Positions 1-50,203 of a DNA stretch of 50,355 nt are shown here, in pieces. The stretch lies in IMG/VR virus record IMGVR_UViG_3300045988_089750. One strand, 5' to 3'. Every line of letters starts with the position of its first letter. Position 1 is the stretch's first letter. Source of the stretch: a virus. Under the pieces are notes generated by a model that was given only the letters and a program-made list of their open reading frames with translations, made no database searches and was not told the origin of the DNA. Both the position numbers and the translations under genes were made by a program.

Positions 1-99
1 CAATCAATAGCGTAAAATCCCGAATATTCGGCTACTTATGAAAATGTGACAACAGTTGATTATATTTGAACATCTTGGGCTTAGAGCCGTACGCACCGC
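1..99. repeat. Terminal direct repeat, left copy (identical to 50257..50355)
   Basis: Exact 99-bp identity read directly from the sequence. The window begins and ends exactly at the repeat. Confidence 0.95.
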
Positions 100-3968: not shown

Positions 3969-5303
3969 TTACGCGGCGGGGATAAAGCAAAGCCGAGAGC
4001 CGAGATGCGCAGACGTAATCGCAGCCGTGTAATTCGCATACGCGCACGAAAGCCCGGCATACGCGCCGTCATTCGCACTACCGCCGAACAAGAAACCCCT
4101 TTGCGCTACGCCACTGGCTGGTATGTTGGTATAGAAGTAGTCGGCAAAGTAGGTAGTAGAACCTGCGCCCACTTCCGTAGGCATATTTTCCCCGTATTCG
4201 CCTATCATCATGCGCTTAACATAACCTTCCTTGCGTGGAAGTTCGCCACGTTTTACGTAATTGTCATAGTTTGTATCTTGGTAGTTCGCCGGGTTATCGC
4301 AAGTATAGAAAGAACTGATGCCGCCGTCCGCGTCTGATTCAATGGCGCATTTGCATCCGTCCGTCCAACTCCAAACATGCCCGAACGGGTTTTCTATTCC
4401 TCGGTATGAAGGTACTTTTACTTTGGTAACTACGCCCGTGTCGTATTCGTCCGGCATGGTGTATTCTACCACACCCGAAGCGTTACCCAATGAATTGGTA
4501 GTACCGCATGGCACAAACGGATAGTAGCTGTTGAAGGTGTTCCACTTTGTACTGTTAAGCGTCGTAACGCCTGCGCCTAACCCGCCTTGCTTGTACCCTT
4601 CGCTCGTAGGTTGCGCGTTAAAATCAAGCTGGCAGTTAAGGTTAGCGTATTCAATCACGTAAAGCCAATAGGTCGCGTTTTGTGCCGCGTATAAATCGCA
4701 GTTCCATCCTGCGCTGTTCAATCCGGCTGCACCTCTGTTACGTGCGTATTTTCGGAAGTTGGTAAGGCTCGTTTGTGTAGCTGGACGACCTAAGAGGGTT
4801 CTATAAGTTCCGTCCCATGCCGTATTATTGTTTCCGCCCCGGAAAGCAGCCGTAGTATTTACCACACTGGCAAGTTTGGGCGTAGCTGATAAAGTTCTGT
4901 CTATCGTGGCTTCGTATGCGCTCCGGTACATCTTCGGCACTTCGATAAAGCCCGGTAGTTGGTATTGTGATATAAGGCAGGTAAACGTAGTACCGTCAAA
5001 TTCAAACTTACGGTAGTGCTTCGGTATTTCTACCATTACCATGCCGGAAGCTCCGGTAAGGTCTGCCGCTGCCCCGGTGTCCGTCTTCGTACTGTCGGTT
5101 TGATGAAGGTAGGTAACAACCTGCCCGGCATCGTTAAGCAAACAACGGCGCATAAGGGATTGAACCGGGAGCGAAACATGTAGTTCCGATCTTCCTACGC
5201 GTTCTAACGCGGTATCTGCCACGTTTATATTAATCTTTACGCCGTAATAGTAATCATAAGGAAACGCGGGCTTTGTGTTGCCCGCTGCAATAATTAAACC
5301 CAT
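3969..5303 (-). CDS. DGR variable (target) protein with C-type-lectin/FGE-like C-terminal domain; probable receptor-binding tail protein
   Basis: The C-terminus contains NPFGHVWSWTDG ... FLFGGSANDGAYAGLSCAYANYTAAITSAHLGSRLCF and carries VR1. The start is placed at ATG 5303 (MGLIIAAG) to avoid a 70-nt overlap with the upstream gene. The ORF track's alternative start is 5384. Confidence 0.85.
   Translation of the reverse strand: MGLIIAAGNTKPAFPYDYYYGVKININVADTALERVGRSELHVSLPVQSLMRRCLLNDAGQVVTYLHQTDSTKTDTGAAADLTGASGMVMVEIPKHYRKFEFDGTTFTCLISQYQLPGFIEVPKMYRSAYEATIDRTLSATPKLASVVNTTAAFRGGNNNTAWDGTYRTLLGRPATQTSLTNFRKYARNRGAAGLNSAGWNCDLYAAQNATYWLYVIEYANLNCQLDFNAQPTSEGYKQGGLGAGVTTLNSTKWNTFNSYYPFVPCGTTNSLGNASGVVEYTMPDEYDTGVVTKVKVPSYRGIENPFGHVWSWTDGCKCAIESDADGGISSFYTCDNPANYQDTNYDNYVKRGELPRKEGYVKRMMIGEYGENMPTEVGAGSTTYFADYFYTNIPASGVAQRGFLFGGSANDGAYAGLSCAYANYTAAITSAHLGSRLCFIPAA
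3986..4098 (-). repeat. DGR variable repeat VR1 (full length)
   Basis: Gap-free alignment to TR at offset +545. There are 17 mismatches, all at TR adenines, plus one non-A mismatch at the distal boundary (TR 3549). Confidence 0.92.
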
Positions 5304-5613: not shown

Positions 5614-5630
5614 CGTATTAGTTTAATACG
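5614..5630. promoter_or_regulatory. 17-bp palindrome site 1 (CGTATTA-GTT-TAATACG, perfect)
   Basis: Intergenic, 9 bp upstream of a minus-strand TATTTTTG -7 box (5597..5604) and 39 bp upstream of ATG 5575. Confidence 0.6.
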
Positions 5631-18711: not shown

Positions 18712-19815
18712 TTAGTGATTCCATGTGTTGCTGTCGGTAGCCATCAACCAAGAACGGGAAGAAGAAAGCCACGCTGGGAAAGCGTTTGCGATACCCATAG
18801 TAACCTCTTCCAAAGGTTCTTCGTTAGCGAACTTCTTTATAAGGGTGTGACCGTTCAAAGCCTTAATCGCTACTGAACCTTTTACGTTCATGTCTGCGGG
18901 CTTCTTCCAGTAGGTTTGTCCCAATACTTTGCTTTCCGTGAACAGTACCACGTTCTCGGTAAACGGGTTTCCGGTGTATCTGTCACCGTTGGGAAGTTCT
19001 ACGGTAATATCTTGGTCAATCACAACAAGCTGCAAGCCCTTCAAGTAGGGAAGCGTTTTCATTGCGCTGTTTACTTGTTCAAGGCTTGGCGTTTGCTGGA
19101 GGTTCAAGGCATTCACGGCGAAGGAAGCGCAGATTTTCTGTACTTCTGCGGTTTCCGCGAAAGTCGCAAACGTGTCAAGGGACATAAACGCGAATTTCAA
19201 AGATACGCCCTCTTTCTTCGCTGCCTTTACAACGTTCTTGAAATCCTTAGAGATAGGTTTTGCGGAAGCGGAAGTAGCCCAAGAAGCCGAGCCGGTTTGG
19301 AAGCCTAACTTTCTTTCGGCTGGGATTTGGTAATCTACATCGTATTCGCTGATTACTGAACCGTTGTTTTCGTTGGTAAGCGTAATCTTACCTAAAGAGA
19401 TTTCCTGCAAAGCCATCCATTCCAAACGGGCGGCTACCGCCGTCCAGCAGAAATTAGTGTCTTCTGCCCATGCTTCAACCAACGCGCGAAGGTCGGGGTT
19501 CTGCGAAGTCATGGCTAACATTACTTCGTAGTCCGTAAGTTCGTCTTCGTTCTTGGTGCGCTTTACGGCAATCTTCGGGATGTCCCCTTGTAAACGTGCA
19601 ATCGCATCGCGGGTCTTTTTGTCAATGGTCGCCCCGCGTGCCACCAAGTCGGCGGCTATTTTAAGCCCTACCTGCGCTTCCAAAGCCTTCCATGTCAAGG
19701 TATAGGTTTCCTTCAACGGGAAAAGCGTAGGATAGTAGTAGGGCTTCAAATCGTAAGTATTAATCACGGCTTGCATGTCTTTCTCTACAAGACCGCGCAT
19801 TAAAGTCTTAATCAT
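18712..19815 (-). CDS. Major capsid protein (lambda gpE-like family)
   Basis: 367 aa. The gene order scaffold, decoration, capsid matches lambda Nu3/C-D-E, and the sequence resembles Phage_cap_E-type proteins. Confidence 0.8.
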   Translation of the reverse strand: MIKTLMRGLVEKDMQAVINTYDLKPYYYPTLFPLKETYTLTWKALEAQVGLKIAADLVARGATIDKKTRDAIARLQGDIPKIAVKRTKNEDELTDYEVMLAMTSQNPDLRALVEAWAEDTNFCWTAVAARLEWMALQEISLGKITLTNENNGSVISEYDVDYQIPAERKLGFQTGSASWATSASAKPISKDFKNVVKAAKKEGVSLKFAFMSLDTFATFAETAEVQKICASFAVNALNLQQTPSLEQVNSAMKTLPYLKGLQLVVIDQDITVELPNGDRYTGNPFTENVVLFTESKVLGQTYWKKPADMNVKGSVAIKALNGHTLIKKFANEEPLEEVTMGIANAFPAWLSSSRSWLMATDSNTWNH

Positions 19816-20437: not shown

Positions 20438-21148
20438 TTAAACTTCTTTGCCCGTTAAGGCTGTCTTACTCTCGGTCTGCGCTTTGATGTAGTCTGCTAC
20501 GCCACTGCTTACGCCTTCTTTGTTCACGGCTCCAAAAATCGGCTTATCGTGTCCTTGCAGTCCTGCGTCTGCGCGTTCTTGCGCTAAGGCTGCGATGTCG
20601 CCTTTCGCTTCGGTCAAGTAGCTGTTGAAATCTTCGTCGCTCGCAAAGGTGTTAGCCCGGTCGAAGTTCTTTAACATCACGTCGCGGGTCTTTCCCTCAA
20701 TCTTCGCGTTGTCCAATTCCGCTACAAATAGTTCACGTCGCGAAGCAGCCGCCTTATTTGCGTTAATCTCGGTAATGCTACTTTGCACGCCCGAAAGTTT
20801 TTCATCAATAAGTTTGCTGATCGCGTCAAGCGTTATCGCTCCGCCTGCTGGTGGCGTGGGTGGTGTCGGCGGTGTTTGCTTTCCCTTTTCCACTAAATCG
20901 TACTTTTCTTTCAGTCCGTTTTCGTAGGTTTGGTTCGCTTTGCTTATTTCCGCGTCTGCGACCTTACGCCAATCTGTTACGTACTGGCTAACTTTGTCGG
21001 CGGTAAGTTTATCTACAACTCCGTTAGCTTCTTCTATGGTAGCGACTTGTAAGCCGATAGCGGCTGCCAAATGCTGTAACCCATCTTTGCGCACGCCTTG
21101 GAACTTTGCCACAAGTAGTGCTAAGATTTGTTCTTGTAATTCGTTCAT
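20438..21148 (-). CDS. Scaffolding protein
   Basis: Helical, charged, with a PPTPPTPP linker. It lies immediately upstream of the decoration and capsid genes. Confidence 0.65.
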   Translation of the reverse strand: MNELQEQILALLVAKFQGVRKDGLQHLAAAIGLQVATIEEANGVVDKLTADKVSQYVTDWRKVADAEISKANQTYENGLKEKYDLVEKGKQTPPTPPTPPAGGAITLDAISKLIDEKLSGVQSSITEINANKAAASRRELFVAELDNAKIEGKTRDVMLKNFDRANTFASDEDFNSYLTEAKGDIAALAQERADAGLQGHDKPIFGAVNKEGVSSGVADYIKAQTESKTALTGKEV

Positions 21149-21170
21149 AAACTATTTTGTTAAACCGAAG

Positions 21171-21178
21171 CAAAGGTA
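21171..21178 (-). promoter_or_regulatory. Bacteroides-type -7 box TACCTTTG upstream of the scaffold/capsid operon
   Basis: The reverse complement of CAAAGGTA matches TAnnTTTG, 23 bp upstream of ATG 21148. There is no TTTG -33 element. The 17-bp palindrome 21180..21196 occupies the spacer. Confidence 0.5.
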
Positions 21179-21179
21179 G

Positions 21180-21196
21180 CGTATTAAGGTAATACG
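21180..21196. promoter_or_regulatory. 17-bp palindrome site 2 (CGTATTA-AGG-TAATACG, perfect)
   Basis: Directly abuts the TACCTTTG -7 box of the scaffold/capsid operon. Confidence 0.6.
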
Positions 21197-21389
21197 GATT
21201 TAAAAAATAGGAAGCAAACACTTCACCGAAACTTCCAATTTTGAAAAAGAGTAGGCGGTAAGAAATAGGCGTATAAAACCACTGCATTGCCTGTTCATTT
21301 GCCCGACATTGAAATTAATTAGCTTCTGCGTGTGTTTAGTAGTCGGTAATATGGACGCGCTTTAAATCGCTTCATTTCCCCTTTGCGTT

Positions 21390-21552
21390 TTTCTCTCGCG
21401 CACACCATTAAGAAGAAGAGAAAGATAATTATTAAATCATATCATTACATATCATATCAATGTTGTTTTCGGTTGTTTTCGCTTGTTTTTTCAACCCTTC
21501 GGTTGTTTCGGTTGAAAAATCAACCACCCGGTTGTTTTCGGTTGTTTTGGCT
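21390..21552. repeat. Origin-like iteron + AT-rich element, copy A (intergenic)
   Basis: About 90 percent identical to 37699..37873, with an exact 85-bp core (21441..21525 = 37763..37847). It has about six GTTGTTTT(C/G)G units, an inverted repeat GGTTGAAAAATCAACC and an AT-rich ATCATATCA tract. Confidence 0.85.
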
Positions 21553-21568
21553 AATTGTATGTTTTTTG

Positions 21569-21599
21569 TTTGCACTGTGCTAATTATTTGATACCTTTG
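21569..21599 (+). promoter_or_regulatory. Bacteroides sigma-A type promoter (TTTG-N19-TACCTTTG)
   Basis: TTTG at 21569..21572 and TACCTTTG at 21592..21599. It points into the plus-strand accessory island. Confidence 0.6.
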
Positions 21600-21871
21600 C
21601 GCTTGTTATCGGGGAGAAATCCGGTAATGAATGGAAAGCGTTAGGTCTTTATATTTGAAAATCGCCAAATTAACAAATAACGAAAAGAGCCTTTTAACGC
21701 GCTGGTGTCGTATATCCATGCTTGATATATCGGCTAAGCGCGGCTATACGGTTTATTTTCGTTGGGCGTTTGGCGATGCCTCAAATATGTAAACCTATAT
21801 AGTCCGCGCTTTCTTTATGTAGTAAAGTGTAATATCTGCTTCGGGCGGTGGGTGCAAAGTTAGCAAATAAA

Positions 21872-22321
21872 ATGAAGAAGTTATTACTTTCCTTCCTGCT
21901 CCTTCCGGGTTTGTTACTTTCCGGTTGCTCAACCTCAAATAATGAACCCGAAGAAGAACCAAACTACCTTTCTACAACCGTCCGGGCTTCTGCCTTTTTT
22001 AGTGAAGTTGGGAGTATTGAACAACTGAATAGCGTTTATGTTGGGCGTACGTATTCTGTGAATTTTGCGCCGTTCTGTTTGTCTGACACTGAATTAATGA
22101 AAATTATAAACGGTTCTGTTGAAAAAGTTACCTACTACTTAAACACACCCAACGTTGGAAATGAAGTAATCGGCGTTTCTACCACCCAGCCTTTTACTAT
22201 CTCGTATTCTCCTAAGAAATCCGGGCAATGTACGTTAAGTGTATCGTTTGACCTTTCAAGCAAAGACCATAACAAATGGGTTGAAGTCGAAAGTATTGTA
22301 GAAGTAATAGACGTGGAATAA
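21872..22321 (+). CDS. Lipoprotein (accessory island; possible surface-exposed/superinfection-exclusion candidate)
   Basis: Signal peptide MKKLLLSFLLLPGLLLSGC with a lipobox, followed by an acidic stretch (CSTSNNEPEEE). The start is placed at ATG 21872; the ORF track begins at a GTG at 21848. Confidence 0.7.
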   Translation: MKKLLLSFLLLPGLLLSGCSTSNNEPEEEPNYLSTTVRASAFFSEVGSIEQLNSVYVGRTYSVNFAPFCLSDTELMKIINGSVEKVTYYLNTPNVGNEVIGVSTTQPFTISYSPKKSGQCTLSVSFDLSSKDHNKWVEVESIVEVIDVE

Positions 22322-22572
22322 TGGAAGTAGAAACTATTTTGGGCTTTATTGCGCTTGCGTGCTTTGTACTGGCTCTTTTTATTGTTCTTGTGGCTCGTAT
22401 AGTAAGCGCAAGGCAGAACAGAGCTAAAAGGAAAGAAAAAGCCGAAGAACTAACCCGTATCTATGTTAATACTGCTATACAACGGTTGAAAGTTTCCGGG
22501 CTTGAACGCCGGACGCGTTGGCTTGATGAAGATAGTAGGTTGTCGGGAAAGAAGGAAGACGAATTAAAGTAA
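22321..22572 (+). CDS. Small single-pass membrane protein
   Basis: N-terminal TM helix (ILGFIALACFVLALFIVLVA) followed by a basic/acidic tail. The start codon immediately follows the upstream stop codon (TAA-ATG). Confidence 0.6.
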   Translation: MEVETILGFIALACFVLALFIVLVARIVSARQNRAKRKEKAEELTRIYVNTAIQRLKVSGLERRTRWLDEDSRLSGKKEDELK

Positions 22573-22576
22573 TACG
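22560..22576. promoter_or_regulatory. 17-bp palindrome site 3 (CGAATTA-AAG-TAATACG, 1 mismatch)
   Basis: Overlaps the stop codon of 22321..22572. Confidence 0.5.
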
Positions 22577-24077: not shown

Positions 24078-24096
24078 GGGGTAATAAGCCCCTTAG
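24074..24096. terminator. Bidirectional hairpin between convergent genes
   Basis: Stem CTAAGGGG (24074..24081) / CCCCTTAG (24089..24096). It overlaps both stop codons. Confidence 0.5.
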
Positions 24097-26360
24097 TTCA
24101 TATATCCGTTTTGCTTTAGCCAATTTTCAAGCGTTGCCCGTCCGCAGCAACAGCTTTTTAAGATGTTGTTTAAGTCTGATTTGCTAACCTTCTTACCGTC
24201 TAAACGTTTTAACCCACCATCTAACAAACCTTGTTTCAATCCGGTTAATTGGTCGGAATAAACTTCGTTATATAGATTCCTTTTTACCGTAGCTAATACT
24301 TTATTAGCGTCAAGCCCGAAGTTACTTATAACCCAATCGTAATTATTAACCATTGTATTATATCCGGTAGAATTACGGTTGGTAATAAATTCGGGATAAG
24401 GTGTTTTGGGACATCCTAATTTCTTGTAAAACTCCGGTAGGGTCTTACGTGATACAAATTCGTTTGCCAATTCCATATAACGCCGTTGCGTATCGGTAAG
24501 GTACATATTTCCCGGTTTGTTCCTATTATGTGTAATCTCATGCCAAAATGTAGCCATAGCGTCTGCTTCTCCTTTTGTTATGTCTGCCGAATGCCTTGTA
24601 GCTATCTTGGCTAATGCAGATTTTACCCCGGCTAATCTATCCGGCGTTAATGATAAACGCCCGTCCATGTATGTAAAGCCATTTACGCCCGTTCTTTTCG
24701 TTGGGGACAGTCTTAAATCTCCGTTTTCAAACCATTTTTCGGTAAGCTCCTTGTTTATCTTTGCAAAGGTTTCATCTACTTGTGCATCCGATGTATAGGC
24801 GGTTCTTAATGCCGGATGCGGGTTATCTCCGCCTTTGGCTGCTTCCGCTTTAGCCTTCTGTAAATCTGTCTTAGCTTTGGATAATGCTTGTTGTAGCTTT
24901 GGGATGCAATCGCCGTAATAGTTAGAAGTATGTATTTCGTTGGCGTTCATAATACTTGTGTACTCTTTTTGCAGGTCAGCAAAGCCTTTCATGTCTTTTT
25001 CTATAAAGTCCCGTAGGTCGCTTATCGCCATAAGCCATTCCCGTTTTCGTTGAAGTAGTACGTTATCTACTTTGTCTATTTCCCCGGTCAGTGCGGTTCT
25101 GTTACCGGAATTGCGTAAAGTGTCTAAAGCTGAAACATCCAAACCGAAGGAATACGCCCAACGCTTGTAATAAGCTATATCGCTGTCAAACTCCGTACAT
25201 GGTTCTACGGTATTCATTGCTTTACTTGCTATCCCAGTTTTCAACCCGCCGCTAATCTTTCCGCCGTTGAAGTTATCGCGAATATAATAAGGCATAGATT
25301 TCCAGCCCTTCGCACGTTCTTCAATGCTACTGATGTAATCCCGAAAGGCTTTAGGTACGTCCTTAACTGTCCGTCGTGAAGGAAGGCTTTTATACTGTGC
25401 GCCCTTAACAATCGCTTTTAGCCTATTAGCCCGGTTCTTGTTGTATTCGTCGTAATCCGCCATGATGGGAACGGCGAAACAGCGGCATTGTGGATGCCAC
25501 CCTACAAATTTGAATGTTTTCGGGTAATCCCCTGCCAACGTGTCGCAAATATCCACGAACGGAACAGGTTCGCCTTTTGAGTTCTTTATAGTGTGGTTGT
25601 TGCTAAGCATTACGCGAATGCCTACAACAAAATCAAGCTGTTGCCATCGTAAGTATTCGCTTTCCCGGTACGCCATGTTTATTTCGGTGCGTGTCAATCG
25701 CTGGGCGTTCTTTGCTGAAGAACGGTAAACACCTTGTCCGGGGTGGTACATCTTTGCCGCCTTACTTAGTCGCAGGTTGCCACCTTTATCGCGTACTCGC
25801 CTATAAAGTCGGTCGGGTTCATTCAAGTATTGTCGCAAATCACGGCTTAATTGCTGTGCGCTTTTTCCTTCCCCTAATCCTACGTCTATGCCCAATTCCA
25901 TAGCGTCTTTTAATTCTTCGGCATACTTCCAAACCCTTTGGCTAAGGTTCAAACCGTTTTCTTTACGTTTCTGAAATGCACTAAGGGCTTCAAGGTTACG
26001 CGCTTGGTAACGTTCGGCTTCTTCTTTGGTTAGTTTGGAAGTCCGAAGTATGGAAGCTAAAAAAGCGTCGTTCTTCTGACATGCTGCCAGCCATTCGGAG
26101 CGTTGCCCGGAAGTAACTACGGCTTCAATCTTTCCGGCAAGTCGGGTAACAATGCCGCGCGCCTGCTTCTTGGCTTTCGGGAAGTCGTCAAAGTTAAACG
26201 TTCCACCAGCCGGAAGGTTAATCTTTCCCGCAAGGCTGGCAAATTCATCCGCCGCCGTTTGGTATAGCTTGGCTACTTGCTTTGCGTAGCGTTCGGTTCT
26301 TGTGTAGTGTTTCGCGTCAAATCCACGAAGCTGTATTATAAGCTGGTTTTCTTTTGCCAT
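24093..26360 (-). CDS. Head morphogenesis protein (SPP1 gp7 / Mu F family) with long C-terminal extension carrying an HExxH motif
   Basis: The MuF-like core ends with ...FKFVGWHPQCRCFAVPI near aa 300. About 450 further residues follow, including WHEITHNRN (HEITH = 24528..24542). Confidence 0.8.
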   Translation of the reverse strand: MAKENQLIIQLRGFDAKHYTRTERYAKQVAKLYQTAADEFASLAGKINLPAGGTFNFDDFPKAKKQARGIVTRLAGKIEAVVTSGQRSEWLAACQKNDAFLASILRTSKLTKEEAERYQARNLEALSAFQKRKENGLNLSQRVWKYAEELKDAMELGIDVGLGEGKSAQQLSRDLRQYLNEPDRLYRRVRDKGGNLRLSKAAKMYHPGQGVYRSSAKNAQRLTRTEINMAYRESEYLRWQQLDFVVGIRVMLSNNHTIKNSKGEPVPFVDICDTLAGDYPKTFKFVGWHPQCRCFAVPIMADYDEYNKNRANRLKAIVKGAQYKSLPSRRTVKDVPKAFRDYISSIEERAKGWKSMPYYIRDNFNGGKISGGLKTGIASKAMNTVEPCTEFDSDIAYYKRWAYSFGLDVSALDTLRNSGNRTALTGEIDKVDNVLLQRKREWLMAISDLRDFIEKDMKGFADLQKEYTSIMNANEIHTSNYYGDCIPKLQQALSKAKTDLQKAKAEAAKGGDNPHPALRTAYTSDAQVDETFAKINKELTEKWFENGDLRLSPTKRTGVNGFTYMDGRLSLTPDRLAGVKSALAKIATRHSADITKGEADAMATFWHEITHNRNKPGNMYLTDTQRRYMELANEFVSRKTLPEFYKKLGCPKTPYPEFITNRNSTGYNTMVNNYDWVISNFGLDANKVLATVKRNLYNEVYSDQLTGLKQGLLDGGLKRLDGKKVSKSDLNNILKSCCCGRATLENWLKQNGYMN

Positions 26361-26456: not shown

Positions 26457-26473
26457 CGTATTATTTTAATACG
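26457..26473. promoter_or_regulatory. 17-bp palindrome site 4 (CGTATTA-TTT-TAATACG, perfect)
   Basis: 9 bp downstream of the portal stop. On the minus strand it is followed by TTTTCTTTG. Confidence 0.6.
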
Positions 26474-26482
26474 TAGTTAAAG

Positions 26483-27967
26483 CTAAAGAGTCGGTTCGTT
26501 CTGATAATAGCTATTTTCCCGGTCTTCTTCGTTAATTATAGCCTTTTCTTCTTCGTCCACGTTATCCGCCCATCCCAAACGCTGAATAGTGGCGCGTCGG
26601 CTTGCAATCTGTTTGTTTCCGTTTGCTGATGTAAGAATGTTTATCTTACTAAGTTCGTCTTCGATGATGTAAGGTACTATTTCGGGTTCTATTATTAAAT
26701 TGTCGCAAGCCTTAGACCATTCCAAATGCGCTTGTTTGAAAAAGGCTTTTAGTACGTTTACCCTTCGCTGCAAATAGTCTGAAAATATTTCGCTTTTATC
26801 CTGCACCTTTAAATGTGCGTCCATGAAAAGGAGTTGTAAGGCTACGCCGGAAATAGCACCTATTCCTTTGACAGTATCAAACGAAATGTCGGGCGTTTGC
26901 GTAATGGTGTAAATCATGCGCAGGAGTGTTTCTATTTCCAGCTTAACACTTTCGGGCGCGTTTTGCCATGCCAAATATTGCGCGGTAGCCCCGTTTTCCC
27001 CTTCAATGATAGCCCCGGCTTCCCCTTTCCGGGCAAATCCTATAACCTTTCCTTGTACGAAAATCTTAGGGCTGGCGTGGTAGTCGTTCGTGTCGGCGAA
27101 GTTGGAAAGCAACTTTTCCAATCGGTCTATAAGGCTTTGAACGTCTTCCCATTCTACTTGTGGCTGGCAGGCATAAATAACGGGTATCTTTCCTATTGTT
27201 AATTCTTTCGGGAAGCCTTCTACCAGAGTCCAATTTTTACCCGCTACTTCCCCGTCCAAACCGTCGCAACACCATAAATAGTGTTTGTCTTTCGTATAGG
27301 TTTCAAAGTAGGTACGTGTAATCATATCCCGGTCTTTGCGCGTAAATTGGCGACTAAACGCAACCATATCGCGCGTGTCGTCAAAGTAGGGGTAAAGCCT
27401 ATCGCCAAACATCGAGCTGAATATGGCTACCTTAAATTTTTTCGTAGTTTTGAAGCCGTAGATTTCGTGTTCAGGCACTTCTACCGGATACCAAAGTTCG
27501 GCTACTTCTGTCGTGCTGTAAAGGCTTCGCGCTATCCGTCTGTTAAGTGTCTTTTCCTTAACGTCGTGGAAGGCTCGGTTTATAGCTTTCAAAAGAGCTT
27601 TTTCGTCTTCCCCTTCCGGGTTACTTCCATAAGTAACCGGGTTTCCGAACGTAAAAGCTACGGCGCGTTTTACTATCAACTTTTGAATAGCCAATGCTAT
27701 ACGCGCTACGGGTTCTATTCTAAACCCTTGTTCCGTAGTCTGTTCTACGTTCGGGTTCACGTTTTTGACTTCGCCGTATTCGTCGCTGTCCTTATCAATT
27801 ACTACAAGTTTGTCCGGTCGCTTTTGCGCGTCATTTATATCGTGCTGCTTCGGGTCGTACTGCGCGACGTGTTCCTTTGTGTTCGGTTCCACACTCAAAC
27901 GTCCGTTTCTCAATTCACTAACGACTTTGCTAATGTCTTCGCTTTGTAATAGTTCTTCTATTGTCAT
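26483..27967 (-). CDS. Portal protein (SPP1 gp6-like)
   Basis: 494 aa between the large terminase and the MuF gene, the canonical order. Size and composition are typical. Confidence 0.8.
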   Translation of the reverse strand: MTIEELLQSEDISKVVSELRNGRLSVEPNTKEHVAQYDPKQHDINDAQKRPDKLVVIDKDSDEYGEVKNVNPNVEQTTEQGFRIEPVARIALAIQKLIVKRAVAFTFGNPVTYGSNPEGEDEKALLKAINRAFHDVKEKTLNRRIARSLYSTTEVAELWYPVEVPEHEIYGFKTTKKFKVAIFSSMFGDRLYPYFDDTRDMVAFSRQFTRKDRDMITRTYFETYTKDKHYLWCCDGLDGEVAGKNWTLVEGFPKELTIGKIPVIYACQPQVEWEDVQSLIDRLEKLLSNFADTNDYHASPKIFVQGKVIGFARKGEAGAIIEGENGATAQYLAWQNAPESVKLEIETLLRMIYTITQTPDISFDTVKGIGAISGVALQLLFMDAHLKVQDKSEIFSDYLQRRVNVLKAFFKQAHLEWSKACDNLIIEPEIVPYIIEDELSKINILTSANGNKQIASRRATIQRLGWADNVDEEEKAIINEEDRENSYYQNEPTL

Positions 27968-31740: not shown

Positions 31741-31781
31741 AAAAATAAAAGGTTTAGCGTATTAAAGTGATACGCTAAACC
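31741..31781 (-). terminator. Rho-independent terminator at the end of the early operon (contains palindrome site 31758..31774)
   Basis: 11-bp stem GGTTTAGCGTA (31751..31761) / TACGCTAAACC (31771..31781), followed on the minus strand by TTTTATTTTT. Confidence 0.7.
31758..31774. promoter_or_regulatory. 17-bp palindrome site 5 (CGTATTA-AAG-TGATACG)
   Basis: Forms the core of the terminator hairpin 31751..31781. Identical to site 8. Confidence 0.55.
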
Positions 31782-36031: not shown

Positions 36032-36048
36032 CGTCTTATTTTAATACG
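36032..36048. promoter_or_regulatory. 17-bp palindrome site 6 (CGTCTTA-TTT-TAATACG, 1 mismatch)
   Basis: Overlaps the stop of 36036..36644, 10 bp upstream of ATG 36021. Confidence 0.5.
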
Positions 36049-36644
36049 TCTTTTGGAACACTTAACTTTTTACTCAATAGGGTAGCAACCTTTTCGGCTG
36101 CTGCGCGAAACTCCTTGTTATACTTGTATTCGCTATCGTACCGCCGAAGGTAATAACATATCGTACTTTGGTCGTGTAAGGTTTCTTCTGCTATATGCTG
36201 GGTATTCTCTCCGCGTTTTTTACAATGATGCGCGTAAATCATCCGGGCGTAAACGTGCCAGCGGTTACGGCTGTCTTCTGAAATGGAAGCGAAGCTAACC
36301 CCCATAGCGGTAAGTATAGCCGTTTTTATATCCCGGTGTTTGGGTGGTTTCTCGTAGTTTATAATCAGTCCCAAACCTTCGGCTATGTATAGTTCCAGCC
36401 CTGCGCCCGTGCTGCGTTCCCAATTAGAAAGCATATAAATTGCGTCGCAATCGAGCAGAAGGCGAATATCTACTTTCATTTGTTCCTGCCAGCGCGAACC
36501 CGGCTTTAATTCATACCGCAATGGGTTTACAACCTCGTAACCCTTTGCTCTTAGTTCCGCTTCCGCTTTGCTGAACTTTTCCGCGTATTCGGCTACCGGA
36601 AGTCCGGTTATTTGCCCGCTTATATACACTTTGTGCTTCTTCAT
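36036..36644 (-). CDS. DUF4406 (nucleoside 2-deoxyribosyltransferase-like) domain fused to a DnaA domain-IV-like HTH
   Basis: The N-terminal KVYISGQITGLP...DAIYMLSNWERSTGAGLE resembles DUF4406. The C-terminal VYARMIYAHHCKKRGENTQHIAEETLHDQSTICYYLRRY resembles the DnaA C-terminal DNA-binding pattern. Confidence 0.5.
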   Translation of the reverse strand: MKKHKVYISGQITGLPVAEYAEKFSKAEAELRAKGYEVVNPLRYELKPGSRWQEQMKVDIRLLLDCDAIYMLSNWERSTGAGLELYIAEGLGLIINYEKPPKHRDIKTAILTAMGVSFASISEDSRNRWHVYARMIYAHHCKKRGENTQHIAEETLHDQSTICYYLRRYDSEYKYNKEFRAAAEKVATLLSKKLSVPKDVLK

Positions 36645-36747: not shown

Positions 36748-37464
36748 CTATCGCGGCGTTAGCTTTGTTAGTCTTGGTCGGTAACTTGAATTATCAAAGC
36801 CTATAAGGTCGAACATCTCTACAAATCGGTCGGCTACACGAACCCCGTAACGCTTGGCTATATCTTCGTCGCCTTCCAAGTTTGAGGTTATAATCGTAAA
36901 TAGCTGGCGGTCGTAACGATGGTATAGCAAATCTACCAACGGGCTAACCTCGTTTCCCCAAACCTTTAGGCTTGCTGGTTCTGTCCCTACGTCATCAATG
37001 CAAAGAAGCTCGGTATTCTTCAAATCCGCTAAAAGTTCCTGCTTTTCGCCTTTTGCAGCTTCTGTAAGTGCGGAAGCTGGAATAAAGGAAACTCCTTTAC
37101 GCTCAAATGATATATCGCTGTGGTAAATCGTGTTTATTAGCTGGGAAATTGCACGCGCTAATGTTGTCTTTCCGCATCCGGGTGTTCCGTATATGAATAA
37201 CCCCGGTTTCATGCTTTCGCCAACGAGCCAACGCGCCGCCATTGTAAGATGCTGCCTTGTCGCTTCGTCTTCTTGGTAAGAATAGCCCCGGTTTTCAACT
37301 TGGAAACGGTAACATTCGCGTAGCATGGCGGGCACGTCCTGCGTATAACGGTCAATCTTAAAGCGTGCTACGGCGGGGCTTCTTTTGCGTAGCAGGTTCG
37401 CAAATGCCACTATATCTATCCGTTGTATCGGTTGCTCCTGCTTTTTGTTCTCTGTTGTTCCCAT
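36748..37464 (-). CDS. DnaC/IstB-like AAA+ helicase loader
   Basis: Walker A GTPGCGKTT and Walker B LLCIDDVG. The start is uncertain: ATG 37464 overlaps the upstream gene by 107 nt, and the alternative is ATG 37326. Confidence 0.75.
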   Translation of the reverse strand: MGTTENKKQEQPIQRIDIVAFANLLRKRSPAVARFKIDRYTQDVPAMLRECYRFQVENRGYSYQEDEATRQHLTMAARWLVGESMKPGLFIYGTPGCGKTTLARAISQLINTIYHSDISFERKGVSFIPASALTEAAKGEKQELLADLKNTELLCIDDVGTEPASLKVWGNEVSPLVDLLYHRYDRQLFTIITSNLEGDEDIAKRYGVRVADRFVEMFDLIGFDNSSYRPRLTKLTPR

Positions 37465-38218
37465 TGTCTTTCCTTATTTTAATTCTTAGATGATTAATCA
37501 AATGCCGCGCCCATTCGGTATAATTTATGTGGGTATCTCCGGTTAGTTCCCATTCGTCTATAACTTCTTCGGCTTCCTTGCGCAATCGTTCGGGAGTGAC
37601 ATAAAGCTGCATACAAATGGTTTCTATCTGCGCCCTTTTGTTTTCGCTGAAAAATTCGGTTAGAAACTTACGGTTTTCGGTTTCCTTTCCGTTTGTACTT
37701 TCTCTCTCGCGCGCACCATCAAGAAGAACAGGAGAATGAGAATTATTATTAATCATATCAACATCATTACATATCATATCAATGTTGTTTTCGGTTGTTT
37801 TCGCTTGTTTTTTCAACCCTTCGGTTGTTTCGGTTGAAAAATCAACCGCCCGGTTGTTTGGGTTGTTTTGGCTTGTTTCCTCGGTTTCCGTATTCTTTTT
37901 CTTCTTTCGTGCGTTCTGATTACCTTTAGGCGCGCCCCCTAATTTGCCGTTAGCTTTATTCAACTGCACTGTTTCCGCATAACGCTTGTTATCAGATTCA
38001 AGACGTTTTCGGATGGGTGCAAATGCTATCCTAACGGTTTTGTTCGCCGTCATTGCTTCCAAATCTTCCGCAGCCTTCGTCCGTATAGCTTCGTTTTCGC
38101 TCTCTAATTGGTTATAGGCTCTAATTGCGCGGAATAACATAGCCGTTTCTTCGTCGTCAAGTTCATCAAGCACTGAAAGCAAATCCATATATAATACGAA
38201 TGAATTTTTATCGCCCAT
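37358..38218 (-). CDS. Replisome organizer / replication initiator-like protein (contains the iteron array)
   Basis: The N-terminal FVLYMDLLSVLDELDDEETAMLFRAIRAY resembles phage replisome-organizer N-terminal domains. It lies upstream of the helicase loader. The low-complexity linker (about aa 116-173) is encoded by the iteron element. Confidence 0.6.
   Translation of the reverse strand: MGDKNSFVLYMDLLSVLDELDDEETAMLFRAIRAYNQLESENEAIRTKAAEDLEAMTANKTVRIAFAPIRKRLESDNKRYAETVQLNKANGKLGGAPKGNQNARKKKKNTETEETSQNNPNNRAVDFSTETTEGLKKQAKTTENNIDMICNDVDMINNNSHSPVLLDGARERESTNGKETENRKFLTEFFSENKRAQIETICMQLYVTPERLRKEAEEVIDEWELTGDTHINYTEWARHLINHLRIKIRKDNGNNREQKAGATDTTDRYSGICEPATQKKPRRSTL
37699..37873. repeat. 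Origin-like iteron + AT-rich element, copy B (inside the replisome-organizer gene)
   Basis: Same GTTGTTTT(C/G)G iterons, GGTTGAAAAATCAACC inverted repeat and ATCATATCA AT-rich tract as 21390..21552. Confidence 0.85.
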
Positions 38219-40351: not shown

Positions 40352-41104
40352 TTAAAAAGGTGTTTTGTTGAAACTAATCCGTAGTCCGGGTTTTGCGACG
40401 TGTACCGTTTTTCCGGTGGCTTTTGCTATTCCGTCCCGGAAGGCTACCGCGTCGCCGTTCCCTTCGCTTATATGTATCAATACTATGTTATTAACCCGTG
40501 TTAGGTCGTTAGCCTTCAACGCGTCCAAACAAGTATAGTAGCTTAAATGGCTTCTCCGTACTCGTTCTTTCAATACTTCCGGTATATAACCTTCTGTTAC
40601 ATTGCGTTCCAATATGTCCGGGTCGTAGTTGCATTCAATTAATATATTGTTCAACCCGGCAAATGTGCAAGGCAAATAGAAAGTATCGGTAGCAAACAAT
40701 ACGCCGCCCGTTTCTTCATGCCAGACGTAGAAGCCCAACGGTTCGCGGCTGTCGTGCTTCGTGGGAAAGGGAATGATAGTAAAACCGCCCAACCGTAAAT
40801 GCTGGTAACTTCCGTTTTCCATCCTTATGTGGGTCGGTCGCCAGCAAGAATTAATCTTAGCGGCTTCTATCGTGCCTTTGGAAGCGTAAACCGGAACAAC
40901 GTAGTTTAAAACCTCATTAATACGCCCGGCATGGTCGCCATGTTCATGGGTAATGAGGCAGCCTACTATTTTCTTTACGTTGTTGCCCAACGCTGCTAAT
41001 ACCTTCTTGAATGGTATTCCAGCTTCAAGTAGAAGGGCTTCGCCCGCGTTTTGCAAAACGTAGGCGTTACCCTCTGAACTTGAACCTAATACGGTTAATT
41101 CCAT
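40352..41104 (-). CDS. MBL-fold metallo-hydrolase
   Basis: HxHxDH motif (ITHEHGDHAG) in the typical N-terminal context. Confidence 0.8.
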   Translation of the reverse strand: MELTVLGSSSEGNAYVLQNAGEALLLEAGIPFKKVLAALGNNVKKIVGCLITHEHGDHAGRINEVLNYVVPVYASKGTIEAAKINSCWRPTHIRMENGSYQHLRLGGFTIIPFPTKHDSREPLGFYVWHEETGGVLFATDTFYLPCTFAGLNNILIECNYDPDILERNVTEGYIPEVLKERVRRSHLSYYTCLDALKANDLTRVNNIVLIHISEGNGDAVAFRDGIAKATGKTVHVAKPGLRISFNKTPF

Positions 41105-46763: not shown

Positions 46764-46780
46764 TGTATTAAAGTAATACG
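46764..46780. promoter_or_regulatory. 17-bp palindrome site 7 (TGTATTA-AAG-TAATACG, 1 mismatch)
   Basis: Immediately downstream of the stop of 46781..47344. Confidence 0.5.
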
Positions 46781-48290: not shown

Positions 48291-48307
48291 CGTATTAAAG
48301 TGATACG
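48291..48307. promoter_or_regulatory. 17-bp palindrome site 8 (CGTATTA-AAG-TGATACG)
   Basis: Intergenic between the repressor gene and 48424..48609. Confidence 0.55.
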
Positions 48308-48609: not shown

Positions 48610-48896
48610 CTAAACCTTCGCCTATAAGCGATGGGATAAACCGTCGTTTCTTTGAAGCTATTGAAGCGATTGTTAGTTTGGGTAAGGTTAGCGCGTTGGA
48701 GGCGTTTTGCACGCTTTACGATTTGAGTGCGCCACGTTATAGGGAAATGCGGCTTACTTATGGTGTTTCTCCGAAGCCCGGCTACCAATCACGCTACAAG
48801 AATATAGAAGTAGAAGCGATTTATTCGCTGGTCGTTAATTATCCTATTTCCTCACGCTGGCTTATAACCGGGCGCGGTAAAATGCTTATCGAATAA
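48594..48896 (+). CDS. HTH-like DNA-binding protein adjacent to integrase (possible excision/regulatory factor)
   Basis: INRRFFEAIEAI...SRWLITGRGKM resembles the same repressor-like family. Its stop overlaps the integrase ATG (TAATG). Confidence 0.5.
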   Translation: MPRTIAKPSPISDGINRRFFEAIEAIVSLGKVSALEAFCTLYDLSAPRYREMRLTYGVSPKPGYQSRYKNIEVEAIYSLVVNYPISSRWLITGRGKMLIE

Positions 48897-50203
48897 TGAA
48901 GTTTTCTATTAAGTACCAATTATCGCCGCGAACGGAAGGGGATAGGCTTACGGAAAACGTGCCTATACGCTTACGGGTGTCTTTTGCTGGTATTCGTGTA
49001 GATTTACGTTCCGGCTATGTAATAGACGCGGAAAAGTGGGATAATAATAACGCCTGCGTGAAAGTCGGCGCAAAGAATAGTTTCAACCAAACGGCAGGCG
49101 AAATAAATCGCGCTCTAACAAACCTTTCTTCTATTGTTGAAGAAGTCCTAACCCGGTTTGAACTTGACAACCGCAGAACGCCAACTGCGAAAGAATTTAA
49201 GGCAGCTTTTGATGAAGCAACCGGAAGGAAGAAGAAGGACGTTACGCCGGACTTCTTCACGGTCTTCGACAAATTTGTAGTAGAAGCTGGTACGGCTAAT
49301 AGCTGGGTTCCGGCTACTTATACGAAGTTTAGCAGTTTGCGTAAGCATCTATACGCATATATGCCACAGCAAATACTAAATCTACTAACAAAGGAAAACC
49401 TACAAGGCTTTGTTAAATACCTGCAAGATGCGGGGCAAATGAATACGACCGTAAGCAAGTATATGAGTTATGTACGTTGGTTTCTCCGTTGGGCTTGTAA
49501 TAACGGCTACTATAATGGGCTTTTGCATGAACAATATAAACCGCGTTTCAAGGGGATAGACTGCAAAGAAGTTATCTTCCTTTCATGGGAAGAACTGCAA
49601 CACTTTCTAAACTATCAATTCCCGGAAAACCGCAGTTCTTTGTCGTGCGTACGTGATGTGTTTTGCTTTTGCTGCTTTACTGGGTTGCGCTATTCCGATG
49701 TAGCCCGGCTACGTCCCTGCGATGTCAAACGGACAACAAACAAACCTTTTATATCCATCGTTACTCTGAAAACCGAAGACCGTTTGCATATAGAACTGAA
49801 CAAATACGCGCTTCAAATACTTGACAAATACAAAAACATCAAATTCCCCAAAGGGTTAGCCCTTCCGGTTATCAGCAATGCGAAAATGAACGAATACCTT
49901 AAAGAAGCTGCCGAAATAGCTGGAATAAAAGAACCCGTTAGAATAGTGTTTTTCAAAGGAAACAAACGTTATGAAAATGTATTGCCGAAGTGCGAACTTC
50001 TTACTACTCATAGCGGAAGAAAAACGTTTATCTGCAACGCTATAAGGCTGGGTATTCCAACTAACGTTATTATGGAATGGACGGGACATAGTGATTACAA
50101 AGCAATGAAGCCGTATATAAAAATAGTAGATGCGGTTAAAGAGGAAAACATGTCTAAATTTGACACCTTTTCCGAAGAAGAAAAGGGCAATAGTAAAAAA
50201 TAG
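48896..50203 (+). CDS. int: Tyrosine recombinase / phage integrase
   Basis: Bacteroidales-type integrase with an N-terminal arm-binding region. The catalytic region includes GLRYSD, HSGRKTF and GHSDYKAMKPYIK (R...HxxR...H...Y). Confidence 0.9.
   Translation: MKFSIKYQLSPRTEGDRLTENVPIRLRVSFAGIRVDLRSGYVIDAEKWDNNNACVKVGAKNSFNQTAGEINRALTNLSSIVEEVLTRFELDNRRTPTAKEFKAAFDEATGRKKKDVTPDFFTVFDKFVVEAGTANSWVPATYTKFSSLRKHLYAYMPQQILNLLTKENLQGFVKYLQDAGQMNTTVSKYMSYVRWFLRWACNNGYYNGLLHEQYKPRFKGIDCKEVIFLSWEELQHFLNYQFPENRSSLSCVRDVFCFCCFTGLRYSDVARLRPCDVKRTTNKPFISIVTLKTEDRLHIELNKYALQILDKYKNIKFPKGLALPVISNAKMNEYLKEAAEIAGIKEPVRIVFFKGNKRYENVLPKCELLTTHSGRKTFICNAIRLGIPTNVIMEWTGHSDYKAMKPYIKIVDAVKEENMSKFDTFSEEEKGNSKK

What the first reader, a model, noticed from the sequence alone, without database searches (positions are those of the whole stretch)
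21390..21552. Second, near-identical copy of the origin-like element in the late-region intergenic space, abutting a host-type promoter
Bases 21390..21552 are about 90 percent identical to 37699..37873, with an exact 85-bp core, in the same orientation 16.3 kb away. Here the element is non-coding. It lies between the divergent capsid operon and the plus-strand accessory island. It ends 16 bp upstream of the -33 box of promoter 21569..21599. Three explanations are possible. It could be a second origin, since SPP1 has oriL plus a distant oriR bound by the same initiator. It could be an initiator-titrating or regulatory site controlling the adjacent promoters. Or it could be a recombination scar that brought in the island. 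Direct repeats of this size could also mediate a 16-kb deletion or segment exchange.
Basis: partly seen in the sequence, partly recalled or inferred. Interest (0 to 1): 0.7.

Follow-up and report, generated by a model that had tools for sequence, protein, structure and literature searches.

The report
Second origin-like iteron element, SPP1-style
A temperate Bacteroides phage has a second, non-coding copy of the replication-origin-like element that lies inside its initiator gene; it sits in the same late-gene slot as oriR of Bacillus phage SPP1 and changes together with the initiator's own element in related phages, so it is most likely a second initiator-binding site or origin.

Summary
Bases 21390-21552 (copy A, non-coding) repeat 37699-37873 (copy B) in the same orientation, 16,322 bp apart, with an exact 85-bp core. 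At least 25 further assemblies, including prophages in large (1.1-6.5 Mb) Bacteroidaceae contigs, carry both copies.

Both copies have three parts: a GC-rich box, an AT-rich stretch that is among the least stable duplex in the genome, and 10-bp GGTTGTTTTC iterons in helical phase plus an inverted repeat. Copy B lies in the disordered linker of a DUF6291 protein encoded just upstream of a DnaC-like helicase loader, which resembles ori in lambda gene O.

In relatives, three different iteron types each occur in both places in the same genome. The iteron core of A varies 5-10 times less than the neighbouring spacer. SPP1 has the same layout: oriL in gene 38 and oriR between gene 7 and the scaffold gene, next to morons. 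Its initiator is not homologous.

Copy A is not universal. It is reduced, mismatched or absent in some relatives that keep the promoter, the RNA and the island, so it is not an island scar.

Best reading (about 0.55): an accessory second initiator-binding origin or fork barrier. Nothing has been shown experimentally. This is a new variant of a known kind.

The parts
21390..21552 (.). Copy A: non-coding origin-like element in the late region
   Evidence: Alignment to 37699-37873. Present in 25 or more independent assemblies.
21393..21406 (.). GC-rich box of copy A (CTCTCGCGCACACC)
   Evidence: Left border of the A/B homology. An equivalent CTCGCGYGYRCGCG-type box precedes the AT-rich part in the type 2 and type 3 elements.
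21407..21461 (.). AT-rich, unwinding-element-like part of copy A, with ATCATATCA repeated twice
   Evidence: The 50-bp window 21407-21456 ranks second among the least stable non-overlapping duplex windows in the genome by nearest-neighbour energy (-51.2 against a mean of -68.3 kcal/mol). Repeats.
21462..21552 (+). Iteron array of copy A: about 7 units of GTTGTTTTCG, start-to-start spacings of 10, 30 and 59 bp, with inverted arms 21483-21496 / 21510-21523
   Evidence: GGTTGTTT occurs 12 times in the window against 3.5 expected, and 8 of the 12 lie in A or B. Diversity in relatives is 0-0.01 at 21460-21519, against 0.05-0.09 in the spacer 21250-21369.
37699..37873 (.). Copy B: origin-like element inside the initiator gene (GC box 37702-37717, AT-rich part 37718-37783, iterons 37784-37873)
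   Evidence: The AT-rich part ranks tenth among the least stable 50-bp windows although it is coding. It encodes aa 116-173, inside the low-confidence linker 99-177.
37358..38218 (-). Putative initiator / replisome organiser, 286 aa, with an N-terminal DUF6291 domain
   Evidence: PF19808, E = 2.3e-16. Weak match to the PHROG 'primosomal protein'. The AF2 model has a helical domain at about 12-98, a disordered linker at 99-177 and a helical domain at 178-253. The N-terminal domain variant changes together with the iteron type in relatives.
36748..37464 (-). DnaC/IstB-like helicase loader, immediately downstream of the initiator gene
   Evidence: phrog_50 'DnaC-like helicase loader', E = 2.2e-33; IstB_IS21 and AAA in Pfam.
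21569..21599 (+). Bacteroidota-type promoter (TTTG-N19-TAcCTTTG), starting 16 bp after copy A
   Evidence: Conserved in relatives with or without copy A.
21606..21815 (+). Conserved structured RNA transcribed from that promoter (not part of the origin-like element; context only)
   Evidence: RNAalifold on 10 relatives gives 65 pairs, 11 of them with compensatory changes. G-U pairs fit the plus strand. No Rfam family matches. Diversity 0-0.004.
20438..21148 (-). Putative scaffold gene (assigned by position; PHROG function unknown), first gene of the capsid operon that diverges from copy A
   Evidence: phrog_5824 (function unknown). It is followed by the major capsid protein gene 18712-19815 (Phage_cap_E).
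24093..26360 (-). Minor head / head morphogenesis protein (same PHROG classes as SPP1 gp7-type proteins; not compared with gp7 directly), the other border of the slot that holds the island and copy A
   Evidence: PHROG 'minor head protein' and 'head morphogenesis'. An SPP1_portal-family portal gene lies upstream at 26483-27967.
21181..21195 (.). Palindrome GTATTAAGGTAATAC upstream of the scaffold gene, in the same intergenic region
   Evidence: One of 8 matches to GTATTAnnnTAATAC against 0.2 expected.

Best explanation
Copy A is a second cis-acting site for the phage's own replication initiator. It works as an accessory origin or initiator-bound fork barrier, like oriR of Bacillus phage SPP1.

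Proposed mechanism:
1. The early minus-strand operon makes the DUF6291 protein (37358-38218) and the DnaC-like loader (36748-37464).
2. The helical N-terminal domain of the DUF6291 protein binds the phased 10-bp iterons (GGTTGTTTTC), which occur in the window only as two arrays.
3. At copy B, inside the linker-coding part of its own gene, this opens the adjacent AT-rich stretch, and the C-terminal domain brings in the loader with the host DnaB helicase. This is the lambda O/P logic.
4. Copy A offers the same iterons, the same inverted repeat and an even less stable AT-rich stretch. It lies between two diverging promoters, where negative supercoiling should help melting. The same protein therefore assembles there and either fires a second origin or stalls forks coming from B. 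In SPP1, such stalling at oriR is the proposed trigger of the switch from theta to concatemer-forming replication.

Shown: the sequence anatomy, the conservation, the co-variation and the positional parallel. Inferred: binding, melting, firing or fork arrest, and the role of supercoiling.

Copy A is accessory rather than essential, because some relatives have lost it or let it decay.
For: - Anatomy. Both copies have a GC box, an AT-rich part and about 7 phased iterons with an inverted repeat. GGTTGTTT occurs 12 times against 3.5 expected, and 8 of the 12 lie in A or B. The AT-rich parts rank second (A) and tenth (B) among the least stable non-overlapping 50-bp windows in the genome.
- Copy B is an origin in the classical position. 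It lies in the disordered linker (aa 99-177, AF2) of a protein encoded directly upstream of a DnaC-like loader. In relatives, four variants of the DUF6291 N-terminal domain go with four different iteron sequences in the same linker position.
- Co-variation of A with B. Three iteron types each occur both in the late slot and in the initiator gene of the same contig. Same-type Smith-Waterman scores are 125-145, 42-57 and 111; scores between different types are 17-35.
- Constraint. Among 17 distinct type 1 sequences, the iteron core of A has diversity 0-0.01, against 0.05-0.09 in the adjacent spacer. B shows the same profile.
- Independent evolution at A that keeps the motif. There is an approximately 80-nt tandem duplication of the iteron block in L149, and an expanded, rearranged array of about 250 nt in L144. 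In type 2, A and B are only about 75% identical, yet most A copies still hold 4-5 iterons, more than shuffles give.
- Precedent. In SPP1 (X97918), gene 38 nt 373-441 match 4878-4948 (83% over 71 nt, same orientation), between gene 7 and morons 8-10 plus scaffold gene 11. G38P binds both sites, and oriR is proposed to stall forks (PMC6316719, PMC3485210). The window has the same slot: minor head gene, morons, copy A, scaffold gene.
Against: - There is no experimental evidence of binding or initiation at either copy, and no homology to G38P.
- Copy A is not conserved throughout the group. It is reduced to 2-3 iterons in three contigs (078937, 079289, 065880). It is absent in three lineages with about 60% scaffold identity.
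- In contig 093846, A carries type 2-like iterons while the initiator gene carries 11 GGTWATS iterons and A carries none of them.
- Type 2 A copies have fewer iterons than B (3-5 against 9). One of them (074040, 3 iterons) is only marginally above shuffles (9 of 300 shuffles reach it).
- Gene conversion from a constrained B copy could produce both the co-variation and the low diversity without any function at A.
- GC skew follows gene orientation and says nothing about origins.
Confidence: 0.55

Rival explanations
1. Copy A is a functionless segmental duplicate of the origin. It was copied from the initiator gene into the late intergenic slot and is kept similar to B by occasional gene conversion. 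Its conservation only reflects the constraint on B.
For: Copy A retains a 47-codon open remnant of the initiator reading frame, so the direction of copying was from B to A. Polymorphisms are shared between A and B across genomes: CGCGCACACC/CGCGCGCACC, TTTTCGG/TTTGGG, and the ATCAT insertion in the A copy of 138049. These indicate exchange between the copies. Copy A decays, mismatches or is lost in several lineages.
Against: Three different iteron types are matched at the same slot. The full three-part architecture, unwinding-type stretch included, is kept each time. A shows its own expansions that preserve the iteron motif and have no counterpart in B. Most type 2 A copies keep significant iteron arrays at only about 75% identity to B, which argues against recent conversion. 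An unrelated phage, SPP1, has the same arrangement with demonstrated initiator binding (PMC6316719).
Confidence: 0.2
2. Copy A is mainly a transcriptional control site. Initiator bound to the iterons, 16 bp upstream of the -33 box and inside the divergent promoter region, couples the onset of replication to expression of the capsid operon, or of the RNA and moron transcript, or it titrates the initiator.
For: Position between the diverging promoters. Copy A ends 16 bp before the TTTG of promoter 21569-21599. A separate palindromic motif for the capsid operon lies in the same region.
Against: Relatives without A, or with a remnant only, keep the same promoter, RNA and capsid-operon upstream sequences. 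An operator would not need a GC box and an unwinding-type AT stretch copied along with the iterons. This rival does not exclude the best explanation.
Confidence: 0.12
3. The pair of direct repeats matters chiefly as a recombination substrate. It promotes loss or exchange of the 16.3-kb segment between the copies (the replication-accessory genes through the head genes), giving defective prophages or module swaps.
For: Contigs 3300045988_118439 and _022626 show scaffold flank, core, then initiator N-terminus (the deletion junction). The short contig 3300029744_000074 carries the initiator N-terminal half (residues 1-153) and breaks off inside the repeat. Contig 3300029046_000100 shows the reciprocal junction.
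Against: All of these come from short-read metagenome assemblies, where a 97-170-bp repeat causes misjoins and breaks. One scaffold has an N gap exactly at the repeat, and several contigs end in it. All 21 long contigs have the normal arrangement. Recombination would be a consequence of the repeat, not a reason for its co-variation.
Confidence: 0.08

Closest known systems
Bacillus phage SPP1 oriL / oriR with origin-binding protein G38P
   Same: One origin element (direct repeats plus an AT-rich unwinding stretch) lies inside the middle, low-complexity part of the initiator gene. A second copy lies in the same orientation in a non-coding stretch of the late region. I confirmed this on X97918: gene 38 nt 373-441 against 4878-4948. 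The second copy sits in the head-gene cluster between the minor head protein gene and the scaffold gene, next to moron genes (PMC6316719). A helicase-loader gene follows the initiator gene.
   Different: The initiators show no detectable sequence similarity (BLASTP). G38P hits Phg_2220_C and the window protein hits DUF6291. SPP1 is virulent, infects a Firmicute and encodes its own DnaB-type helicase; this phage is temperate (integrase at 48896-50203) and infects Bacteroidaceae, and none of the roughly 20 window proteins scanned against Pfam or PHROGs was a replicative helicase (the window was not scanned exhaustively). Here the repeat is longer and more similar (97 nt at 99% against 71 nt at 83%), the morons are on the opposite strand, and A abuts a promoter. 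Binding and fork arrest are shown or proposed for SPP1 only.
Phage lambda ori inside gene O, with the O/P/DnaB initiation pathway (established knowledge, not tested here)
   Same: Iterons and an AT-rich stretch are encoded in the linker between the N-terminal DNA-binding domain and the C-terminal loader-binding domain of the initiator. A loader gene lies directly downstream. Iteron specificity changes with the N-terminal domain among relatives.
   Different: Lambda has a single ori. The O protein is not related to DUF6291.
Satellite phage P4 ori plus crr (my own knowledge, not checked in a paper here)
   Same: A second cluster of the same iterons lies some kilobases from ori on the same replicon and is bound by the same initiator.
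   Different: In P4, crr is required in cis for replication. Here copy A is dispensable in relatives. The P4 alpha protein is a primase-helicase, unrelated to DUF6291.
Iteron control loci of plasmids, such as P1 incA or R6K (my own knowledge)
   Same: Extra iteron arrays away from the origin bind the initiator.
   Different: Those arrays lack an unwinding element and act negatively through titration or handcuffing in copy-number control. Copy A carries the complete origin architecture.

Membership tests
SPP1-type dual origin (oriL in the initiator gene plus oriR in the late region) | Origin element of direct repeats plus an AT-rich unwinding stretch inside the initiator gene | tested here: met
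   Copy B at 37699-37873 in ORF 37358-38218, with phased iterons and a low-stability AT stretch.
SPP1-type dual origin (oriL in the initiator gene plus oriR in the late region) | Second element of the same organisation, same orientation, in a non-coding part of the late region | tested here: met
   Copy A at 21390-21552, between the minor head protein gene and the scaffold gene, next to morons. SPP1 was checked directly.
SPP1-type dual origin (oriL in the initiator gene plus oriR in the late region) | Initiator homologous to G38P | tested here: not met
   BLASTP E = 0.056 on a 17-residue stretch only. The Pfam families differ.
SPP1-type dual origin (oriL in the initiator gene plus oriR in the late region) | The initiator binds both elements, and replication starts or forks stall there | not testable with these tools
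   Needs EMSA, ChIP, marker-frequency analysis or 2D gels.
Iteron-type phage origin embedded in the initiator gene (lambda O-like design) | Several iterons in helical phase next to an AT-rich stretch | tested here: met
   Start-to-start spacings of 10, 30 and 59 bp. Enrichment; stability.
Iteron-type phage origin embedded in the initiator gene (lambda O-like design) | Located in the inter-domain linker of the initiator, with a helicase-loader gene downstream | tested here: met
   The AF2 model has pLDDT below 50 for residues 99-177, flanked by two confident helical domains. DnaC-like loader at 36748-37464.
Iteron-type phage origin embedded in the initiator gene (lambda O-like design) | Iteron sequence co-varies with the initiator's DNA-binding domain among relatives | tested here: met
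   Four DUF6291 N-terminal variants go with GGTTGTTTTC, RSTTGTTTT, GGTTRGTT and GGTWATS iterons.
Iteron-type phage origin embedded in the initiator gene (lambda O-like design) | Supports autonomous replication when the initiator is supplied | not testable with these tools
   Needs an origin-cloning assay in Bacteroides or Phocaeicola.
Pfam DUF6291 (PF19808), for the initiator protein | Score above the gathering threshold | tested here: met
   60.2 bits against a cutoff of 27.2, residues 6-98. Relatives also match.
P4 crr / plasmid control iterons | The second iteron cluster is required in cis, or acts negatively on copy number | not testable with these tools
   Indirect only: A is absent or decayed in several relatives, which argues against an absolute cis requirement.

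The most novel reading that the evidence does not exclude
Copy A is a working second origin or programmed fork-arrest site. The arrangement of an origin inside the initiator gene plus a twin between the minor-head and scaffold genes next to morons has then arisen independently in SPP1 (Firmicutes, G38P) and in this widespread family of temperate Bacteroidaceae phages (DUF6291 initiator). That would point to a general design rule for switching from theta to concatemer-forming replication in phages with SPP1-like head modules. A corollary follows from the natural alleles in which a clean 144-nt in-frame deletion removes every iteron of copy B (P0014, on 15 contigs): those phages would replicate from copy A alone.
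Probability: 0.3. Interest if true: 0.7.

Novelty: new variant of a known kind. Interest (0 to 1): 0.55.

Why it matters
I found no paper on replication origins of Bacteroidota phages, and no paper in the searched library mentions DUF6291. If the reading holds, four things follow.

- DUF6291 gets a function: an iteron-binding replisome organiser.
- Two defined cis elements become available for building Bacteroides phage or plasmid vectors and for testing origin function.
- The SPP1 two-origin layout would not be a peculiarity of one model phage. It would be a recurrent solution that evolved with a non-homologous initiator, which makes the long-standing proposal that a second initiator-bound site triggers the theta-to-sigma switch testable in a second system.
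- The repeat is a practical hazard. It breaks or misjoins metagenome assemblies of a very common human-gut prophage; the terminase small-subunit allele found in relatives of this phage (one residue different from the window's) is indexed in about 35,000 blocks of the collection.

Tried and rejected
- GenBank phages (INPHARED). DNA of 21000-22400 gave no match. The 282-aa neighbour and the initiator gave only marginal protein hits. No described isolate is close.
- Rfam, at gathering and at E-value thresholds, gave nothing meaningful for the element or the adjacent RNA.
- Homology of the initiator to solved structures. The profile search against PDB sequences gave 0 hits. Foldseek of the AF2 model against PDB gave nothing below E = 2.5. 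The fold therefore gives no independent support for DNA binding.
- BLASTP against SPP1 G38P showed no similarity.
- DnaA boxes are at chance level and none lies near A or B, so the neighbouring DnaA_C-HTH protein is not obviously linked to the element.
- GC skew tracks gene orientation and is uninformative.
- I tried to see whether genomes with the iteron-deleted initiator allele (P0014) keep copy A. The flank limit is 10 kb and A lies 16 kb away. Look-ups through the scaffold, TerS, TerL and methylase alleles and a metagenome scan returned only genomes with intact B. This is unresolved.
- The island-scar idea is rejected, because the island's constant part exists without A and A persists when the cargo changes.
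- The assembly-artefact explanation of the repeat itself is rejected.
- The literature search for P4 crr returned only crRNA matches, so the P4 comparison rests on my own knowledge.

Full report
**What the window is.** The window ends in a 99-nt exact direct repeat (1-99 = 50257-50355), so it is a complete genome of about 50,256 bp. Most genes are on the minus strand. They include:
- a tyrosine integrase (48896-50203);
- an SPP1-family portal (26483-27967) and an E-type major capsid protein (18712-19815);
- a minor head / head morphogenesis protein (24093-26360);
- an early replication module with HU, a 282-aa protein of unknown function, a DUF6291 protein (37358-38218), a DnaC-like loader (36748-37464), a DUF4406 + DnaA_C-HTH protein and SSB.

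Promoters are of the Bacteroidota type. The terminase small-subunit allele of close relatives is indexed in about 35,000 blocks of the public collection. NCBI names it 'MULTISPECIES ... [Bacteroidales]', and it lies in 1.1-6.5 Mb Bacteroidaceae contigs, six of them NCBI genome assemblies. The window is therefore a very common temperate phage of human-gut Bacteroides/Phocaeicola. No described phage isolate is close.

**The observation.** The finding is accurate.
- Copy A (21390-21552) and copy B (37699-37873) are direct repeats 16,322 bp apart.
- They share a 97-nt block with one mismatch and an exact 85-bp run. Identity is 86.5% over 193 aligned columns.
- A is non-coding. It lies between the putative scaffold gene (start at 21148, minus strand) and the plus-strand island.
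- A ends 16 bp before the TTTG of the promoter match 21569-21599.
- Both copies are found at the same spacing in 7 long metagenome contigs, 10 prophages in large Bacteroidaceae contigs, 4 further contigs and 4 IMG/VR contigs.

**Anatomy.** Each copy has three parts.
- A GC-rich box: CTCTCGCGCACACC at 21393-21406.
- An AT-rich stretch at 21407-21461, with ATCATATCA twice.
- An array of about seven 10-bp iterons (GTTGTTTTCG) with start-to-start spacings of 10, 30 and 59 bp, interrupted by a 14-nt inverted repeat (21483-21496 / 21510-21523).

GGTTGTTT occurs 12 times in the window against 3.5 expected, and 8 of the 12 lie in the two copies. By nearest-neighbour energies, the AT-rich part of A ranks second and that of B tenth among the least stable non-overlapping 50-bp windows in the genome, although B is coding.

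B encodes residues 116-173 of the 286-aa protein. An AlphaFold2 model built on 34 homologues shows a confident helical domain (about 12-98), a low-confidence linker (99-177) and a second helical domain (178-253). The origin-like element is thus written into a disordered linker, and a helicase-loader gene follows directly. This is the lambda O/ori/P design (established knowledge).

**Copy B behaves like an origin in relatives.** In related contigs, the same gene position holds a DUF6291 protein whose N-terminal domain comes in at least four variants. The linker-coding DNA then carries a different iteron each time:
- GGTTGTTTTC in the window clade;
- RSTTGTTTT preceded by GATATAGATATAAGGT in type 2;
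- GGTTRGTT in type 3;
- GGTWATS in contig 093846.

Linker length also varies between alleles (216-286 aa).

**Copy A in relatives.** I collected the late slot from relatives through the scaffold protein and through a 17-nt motif of the adjacent conserved RNA.
- Three iteron types each occur both in the late slot and in the initiator gene of the same contig: type 1 (window clade), type 2 (136840, 080271, 146208, 2788500272_000001, 110371, 074040) and type 3 (087173).
- Same-type A-B local alignment scores are 125-145, 42-57 and 111. Scores between different types are 17-35.
- Each time the whole three-part unit is present, in the same orientation.
- Among 17 distinct type 1 sequences, diversity is 0.05-0.09 in the spacer 21250-21369. 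It is 0-0.01 in the iteron core 21460-21519, as low as in the neighbouring structured RNA. B shows the same profile.
- A also evolves on its own while keeping the motif. One prophage has a tandem duplication of an approximately 80-nt iteron block, and another has an expanded, rearranged array of about 250 nt.
- A more distant relative with a non-DUF6291 initiator (L176) has an AT-rich stretch plus GTAGSSSCT repeats in the late slot, and two such repeats in the middle of its initiator gene (11 against 1.6 expected in the locus). I treat this only as a tentative fifth case.

**Evidence against a strict requirement.**
- A is reduced to 2-3 iterons in three contigs.
- A is absent in three lineages with about 60% scaffold identity, which nevertheless keep the promoter, the RNA and a lipoprotein gene.
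- In contig 093846, A carries six type 2-like iterons and none of the 11 GGTWATS iterons of its own initiator gene.
- Type 2 A copies have fewer iterons than B (3-5 against 9).
- Shared polymorphisms between A and B across genomes show that the copies exchange sequence. Gene conversion from a constrained B could therefore contribute to both the co-variation and the low diversity.

**Comparison with SPP1.** On X97918 I confirmed that gene 38 nt 373-441 (the low-complexity middle of G38P) match 4878-4948 (83% over 71 nt) in the same orientation. The match lies in the gap between gene 7 and genes 8-10 (morons), followed by scaffold gene 11. The SPP1 genome review states that:
- both origins consist of direct repeats plus an AT-rich unwinding element;
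- gp38 binds both with nanomolar affinity;
- oriR lies in a segment with three moron genes that interrupts the late genes;
- gp38 bound to oriR is proposed to stall the fork and trigger the switch to concatemer synthesis (PMC6316719, PMC3485210).

The window has the same slot: portal, minor head protein, morons, copy A, scaffold, capsid. The initiators are not detectably related. The arrangement is therefore analogous, not a homologous family member.

- The SPP1-like second site is the best supported.
- The regulatory-site idea is not excluded, but it is not needed to explain the promoters, which relatives keep without A.
- The island-scar idea is not supported. The constant part of the island exists without A, and A persists when the cargo is swapped for toxin-antitoxin genes.
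- Hybrid junctions of both reciprocal kinds exist in IMG/VR contigs. Contigs also break inside the repeat or carry N gaps there, and all 21 long contigs are normal. I cannot tell recombination from misassembly.

**An unresolved lead.** One initiator allele (P0014, 238 aa, on 15 contigs from several samples) has a clean 144-nt in-frame deletion. It removes every iteron and most of the AT-rich part of B and leaves the rest of the module 98-99% identical. If these genomes keep A, A is probably their only origin. I could not reach the A region of those contigs with the available flanks.

**Scores.** Confidence in the best explanation is 0.55. Novelty: a new variant of a known kind, that is, a dual-origin layout known from SPP1, here with a non-homologous DUF6291 initiator in temperate Bacteroidaceae phages. 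Interest is 0.55.

Noticed in passing
window 21606-21815 (+): A structured RNA of roughly 200 nt lies directly downstream of promoter 21569-21599 and upstream of the lipoprotein gene. It is conserved even in 60%-identity relatives that lack copy A. RNAalifold gives a long rod of 65 pairs, 11 with compensatory changes, and the G-U pairs fit the plus strand. The 53-aa ORF over it is not conserved. No Rfam family matches. It heads an island whose cargo varies (lipoproteins, ParDE, a Gp49/HTH pair), so it may be a leader or antitermination-type RNA for morons expressed from the prophage.
   Followed up: partly
L121 10001-10717 (also L122, L123); corresponds to window about 37745-37888: A natural initiator allele (P0014, 238 aa, 15 contigs) has a clean 144-nt in-frame deletion that removes all iterons and most of the AT-rich part of copy B. 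The flanking genes are intact. Other alleles (248, 250, 263 aa) delete other parts of the linker.
   Followed up: partly
L008/L026 (contig 3300045988_118439), L010/L028 (contig 3300045988_022626), L009, and L006/L016 (contig 3300029046_000100): These contigs show hybrid repeats. Either the scaffold flank is joined through the core to the initiator N-terminal half (the 16-kb deletion junction), or the initiator C-terminal half is joined to the promoter and RNA (the reciprocal junction). They reflect either real recombination or assembler misjoins. L128 has an N gap exactly at the repeat.
   Followed up: partly
window 5615-5629, 21181-21195, 22561-22575, 26458-26472, 31759-31773, 36033-36047, 46765-46779, 48292-48306: The palindrome GTATTAnnnTAATAC occurs 8 times against 0.2 expected. 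Several copies lie just upstream of minus-strand gene starts, often next to a TAnnTTTG -7 box. The copy upstream of the scaffold gene is conserved in most relatives examined, including some distant ones. It is likely the binding site of a phage transcription regulator.
   Followed up: partly
L099 (late slot) and L057 (initiator gene), contig 3300045988_093846: In this genome the late-slot iterons are type 2-like, while the initiator gene carries 11 GGTWATS iterons. This looks like a replaced initiator/origin cassette with copy A left behind as a relic.
   Followed up: yes
L149 and L144 (window orientation about 1700-2260 of the reverse complement): Copy A has an approximately 80-nt tandem duplication of its iteron block in one Bacteroidaceae prophage. 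In another it is an expanded, rearranged array of about 250 nt with iterons in both orientations. The second prophage also has different island cargo (ParD/ParE).
   Followed up: partly
window 36036-36644 (-): This protein fuses a DUF4406 / nucleoside 2-deoxyribosyltransferase-like domain to a DnaA domain IV-type helix-turn-helix. It is encoded right after the helicase loader. No DnaA boxes lie near either origin-like copy.
   Followed up: partly
window 21220-21245: The motif AAACACTTCRCCRAAACTTCC is conserved in the capsid-operon upstream region of all relatives that have the conserved RNA, including those without copy A. Its function is unknown.
   Followed up: no
window 1-99 and 50257-50355: An exact 99-nt terminal direct repeat shows that the window is a complete, circularly assembled genome of about 50,256 bp.
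   Followed up: no
window 40352-41104 (-): This metallo-beta-lactamase-fold protein lies in the early module. In precomputed annotations its relatives also hit the Anti-Pycsar Apyc1 family. It could be a nuclease or an anti-defence enzyme.
   Followed up: no
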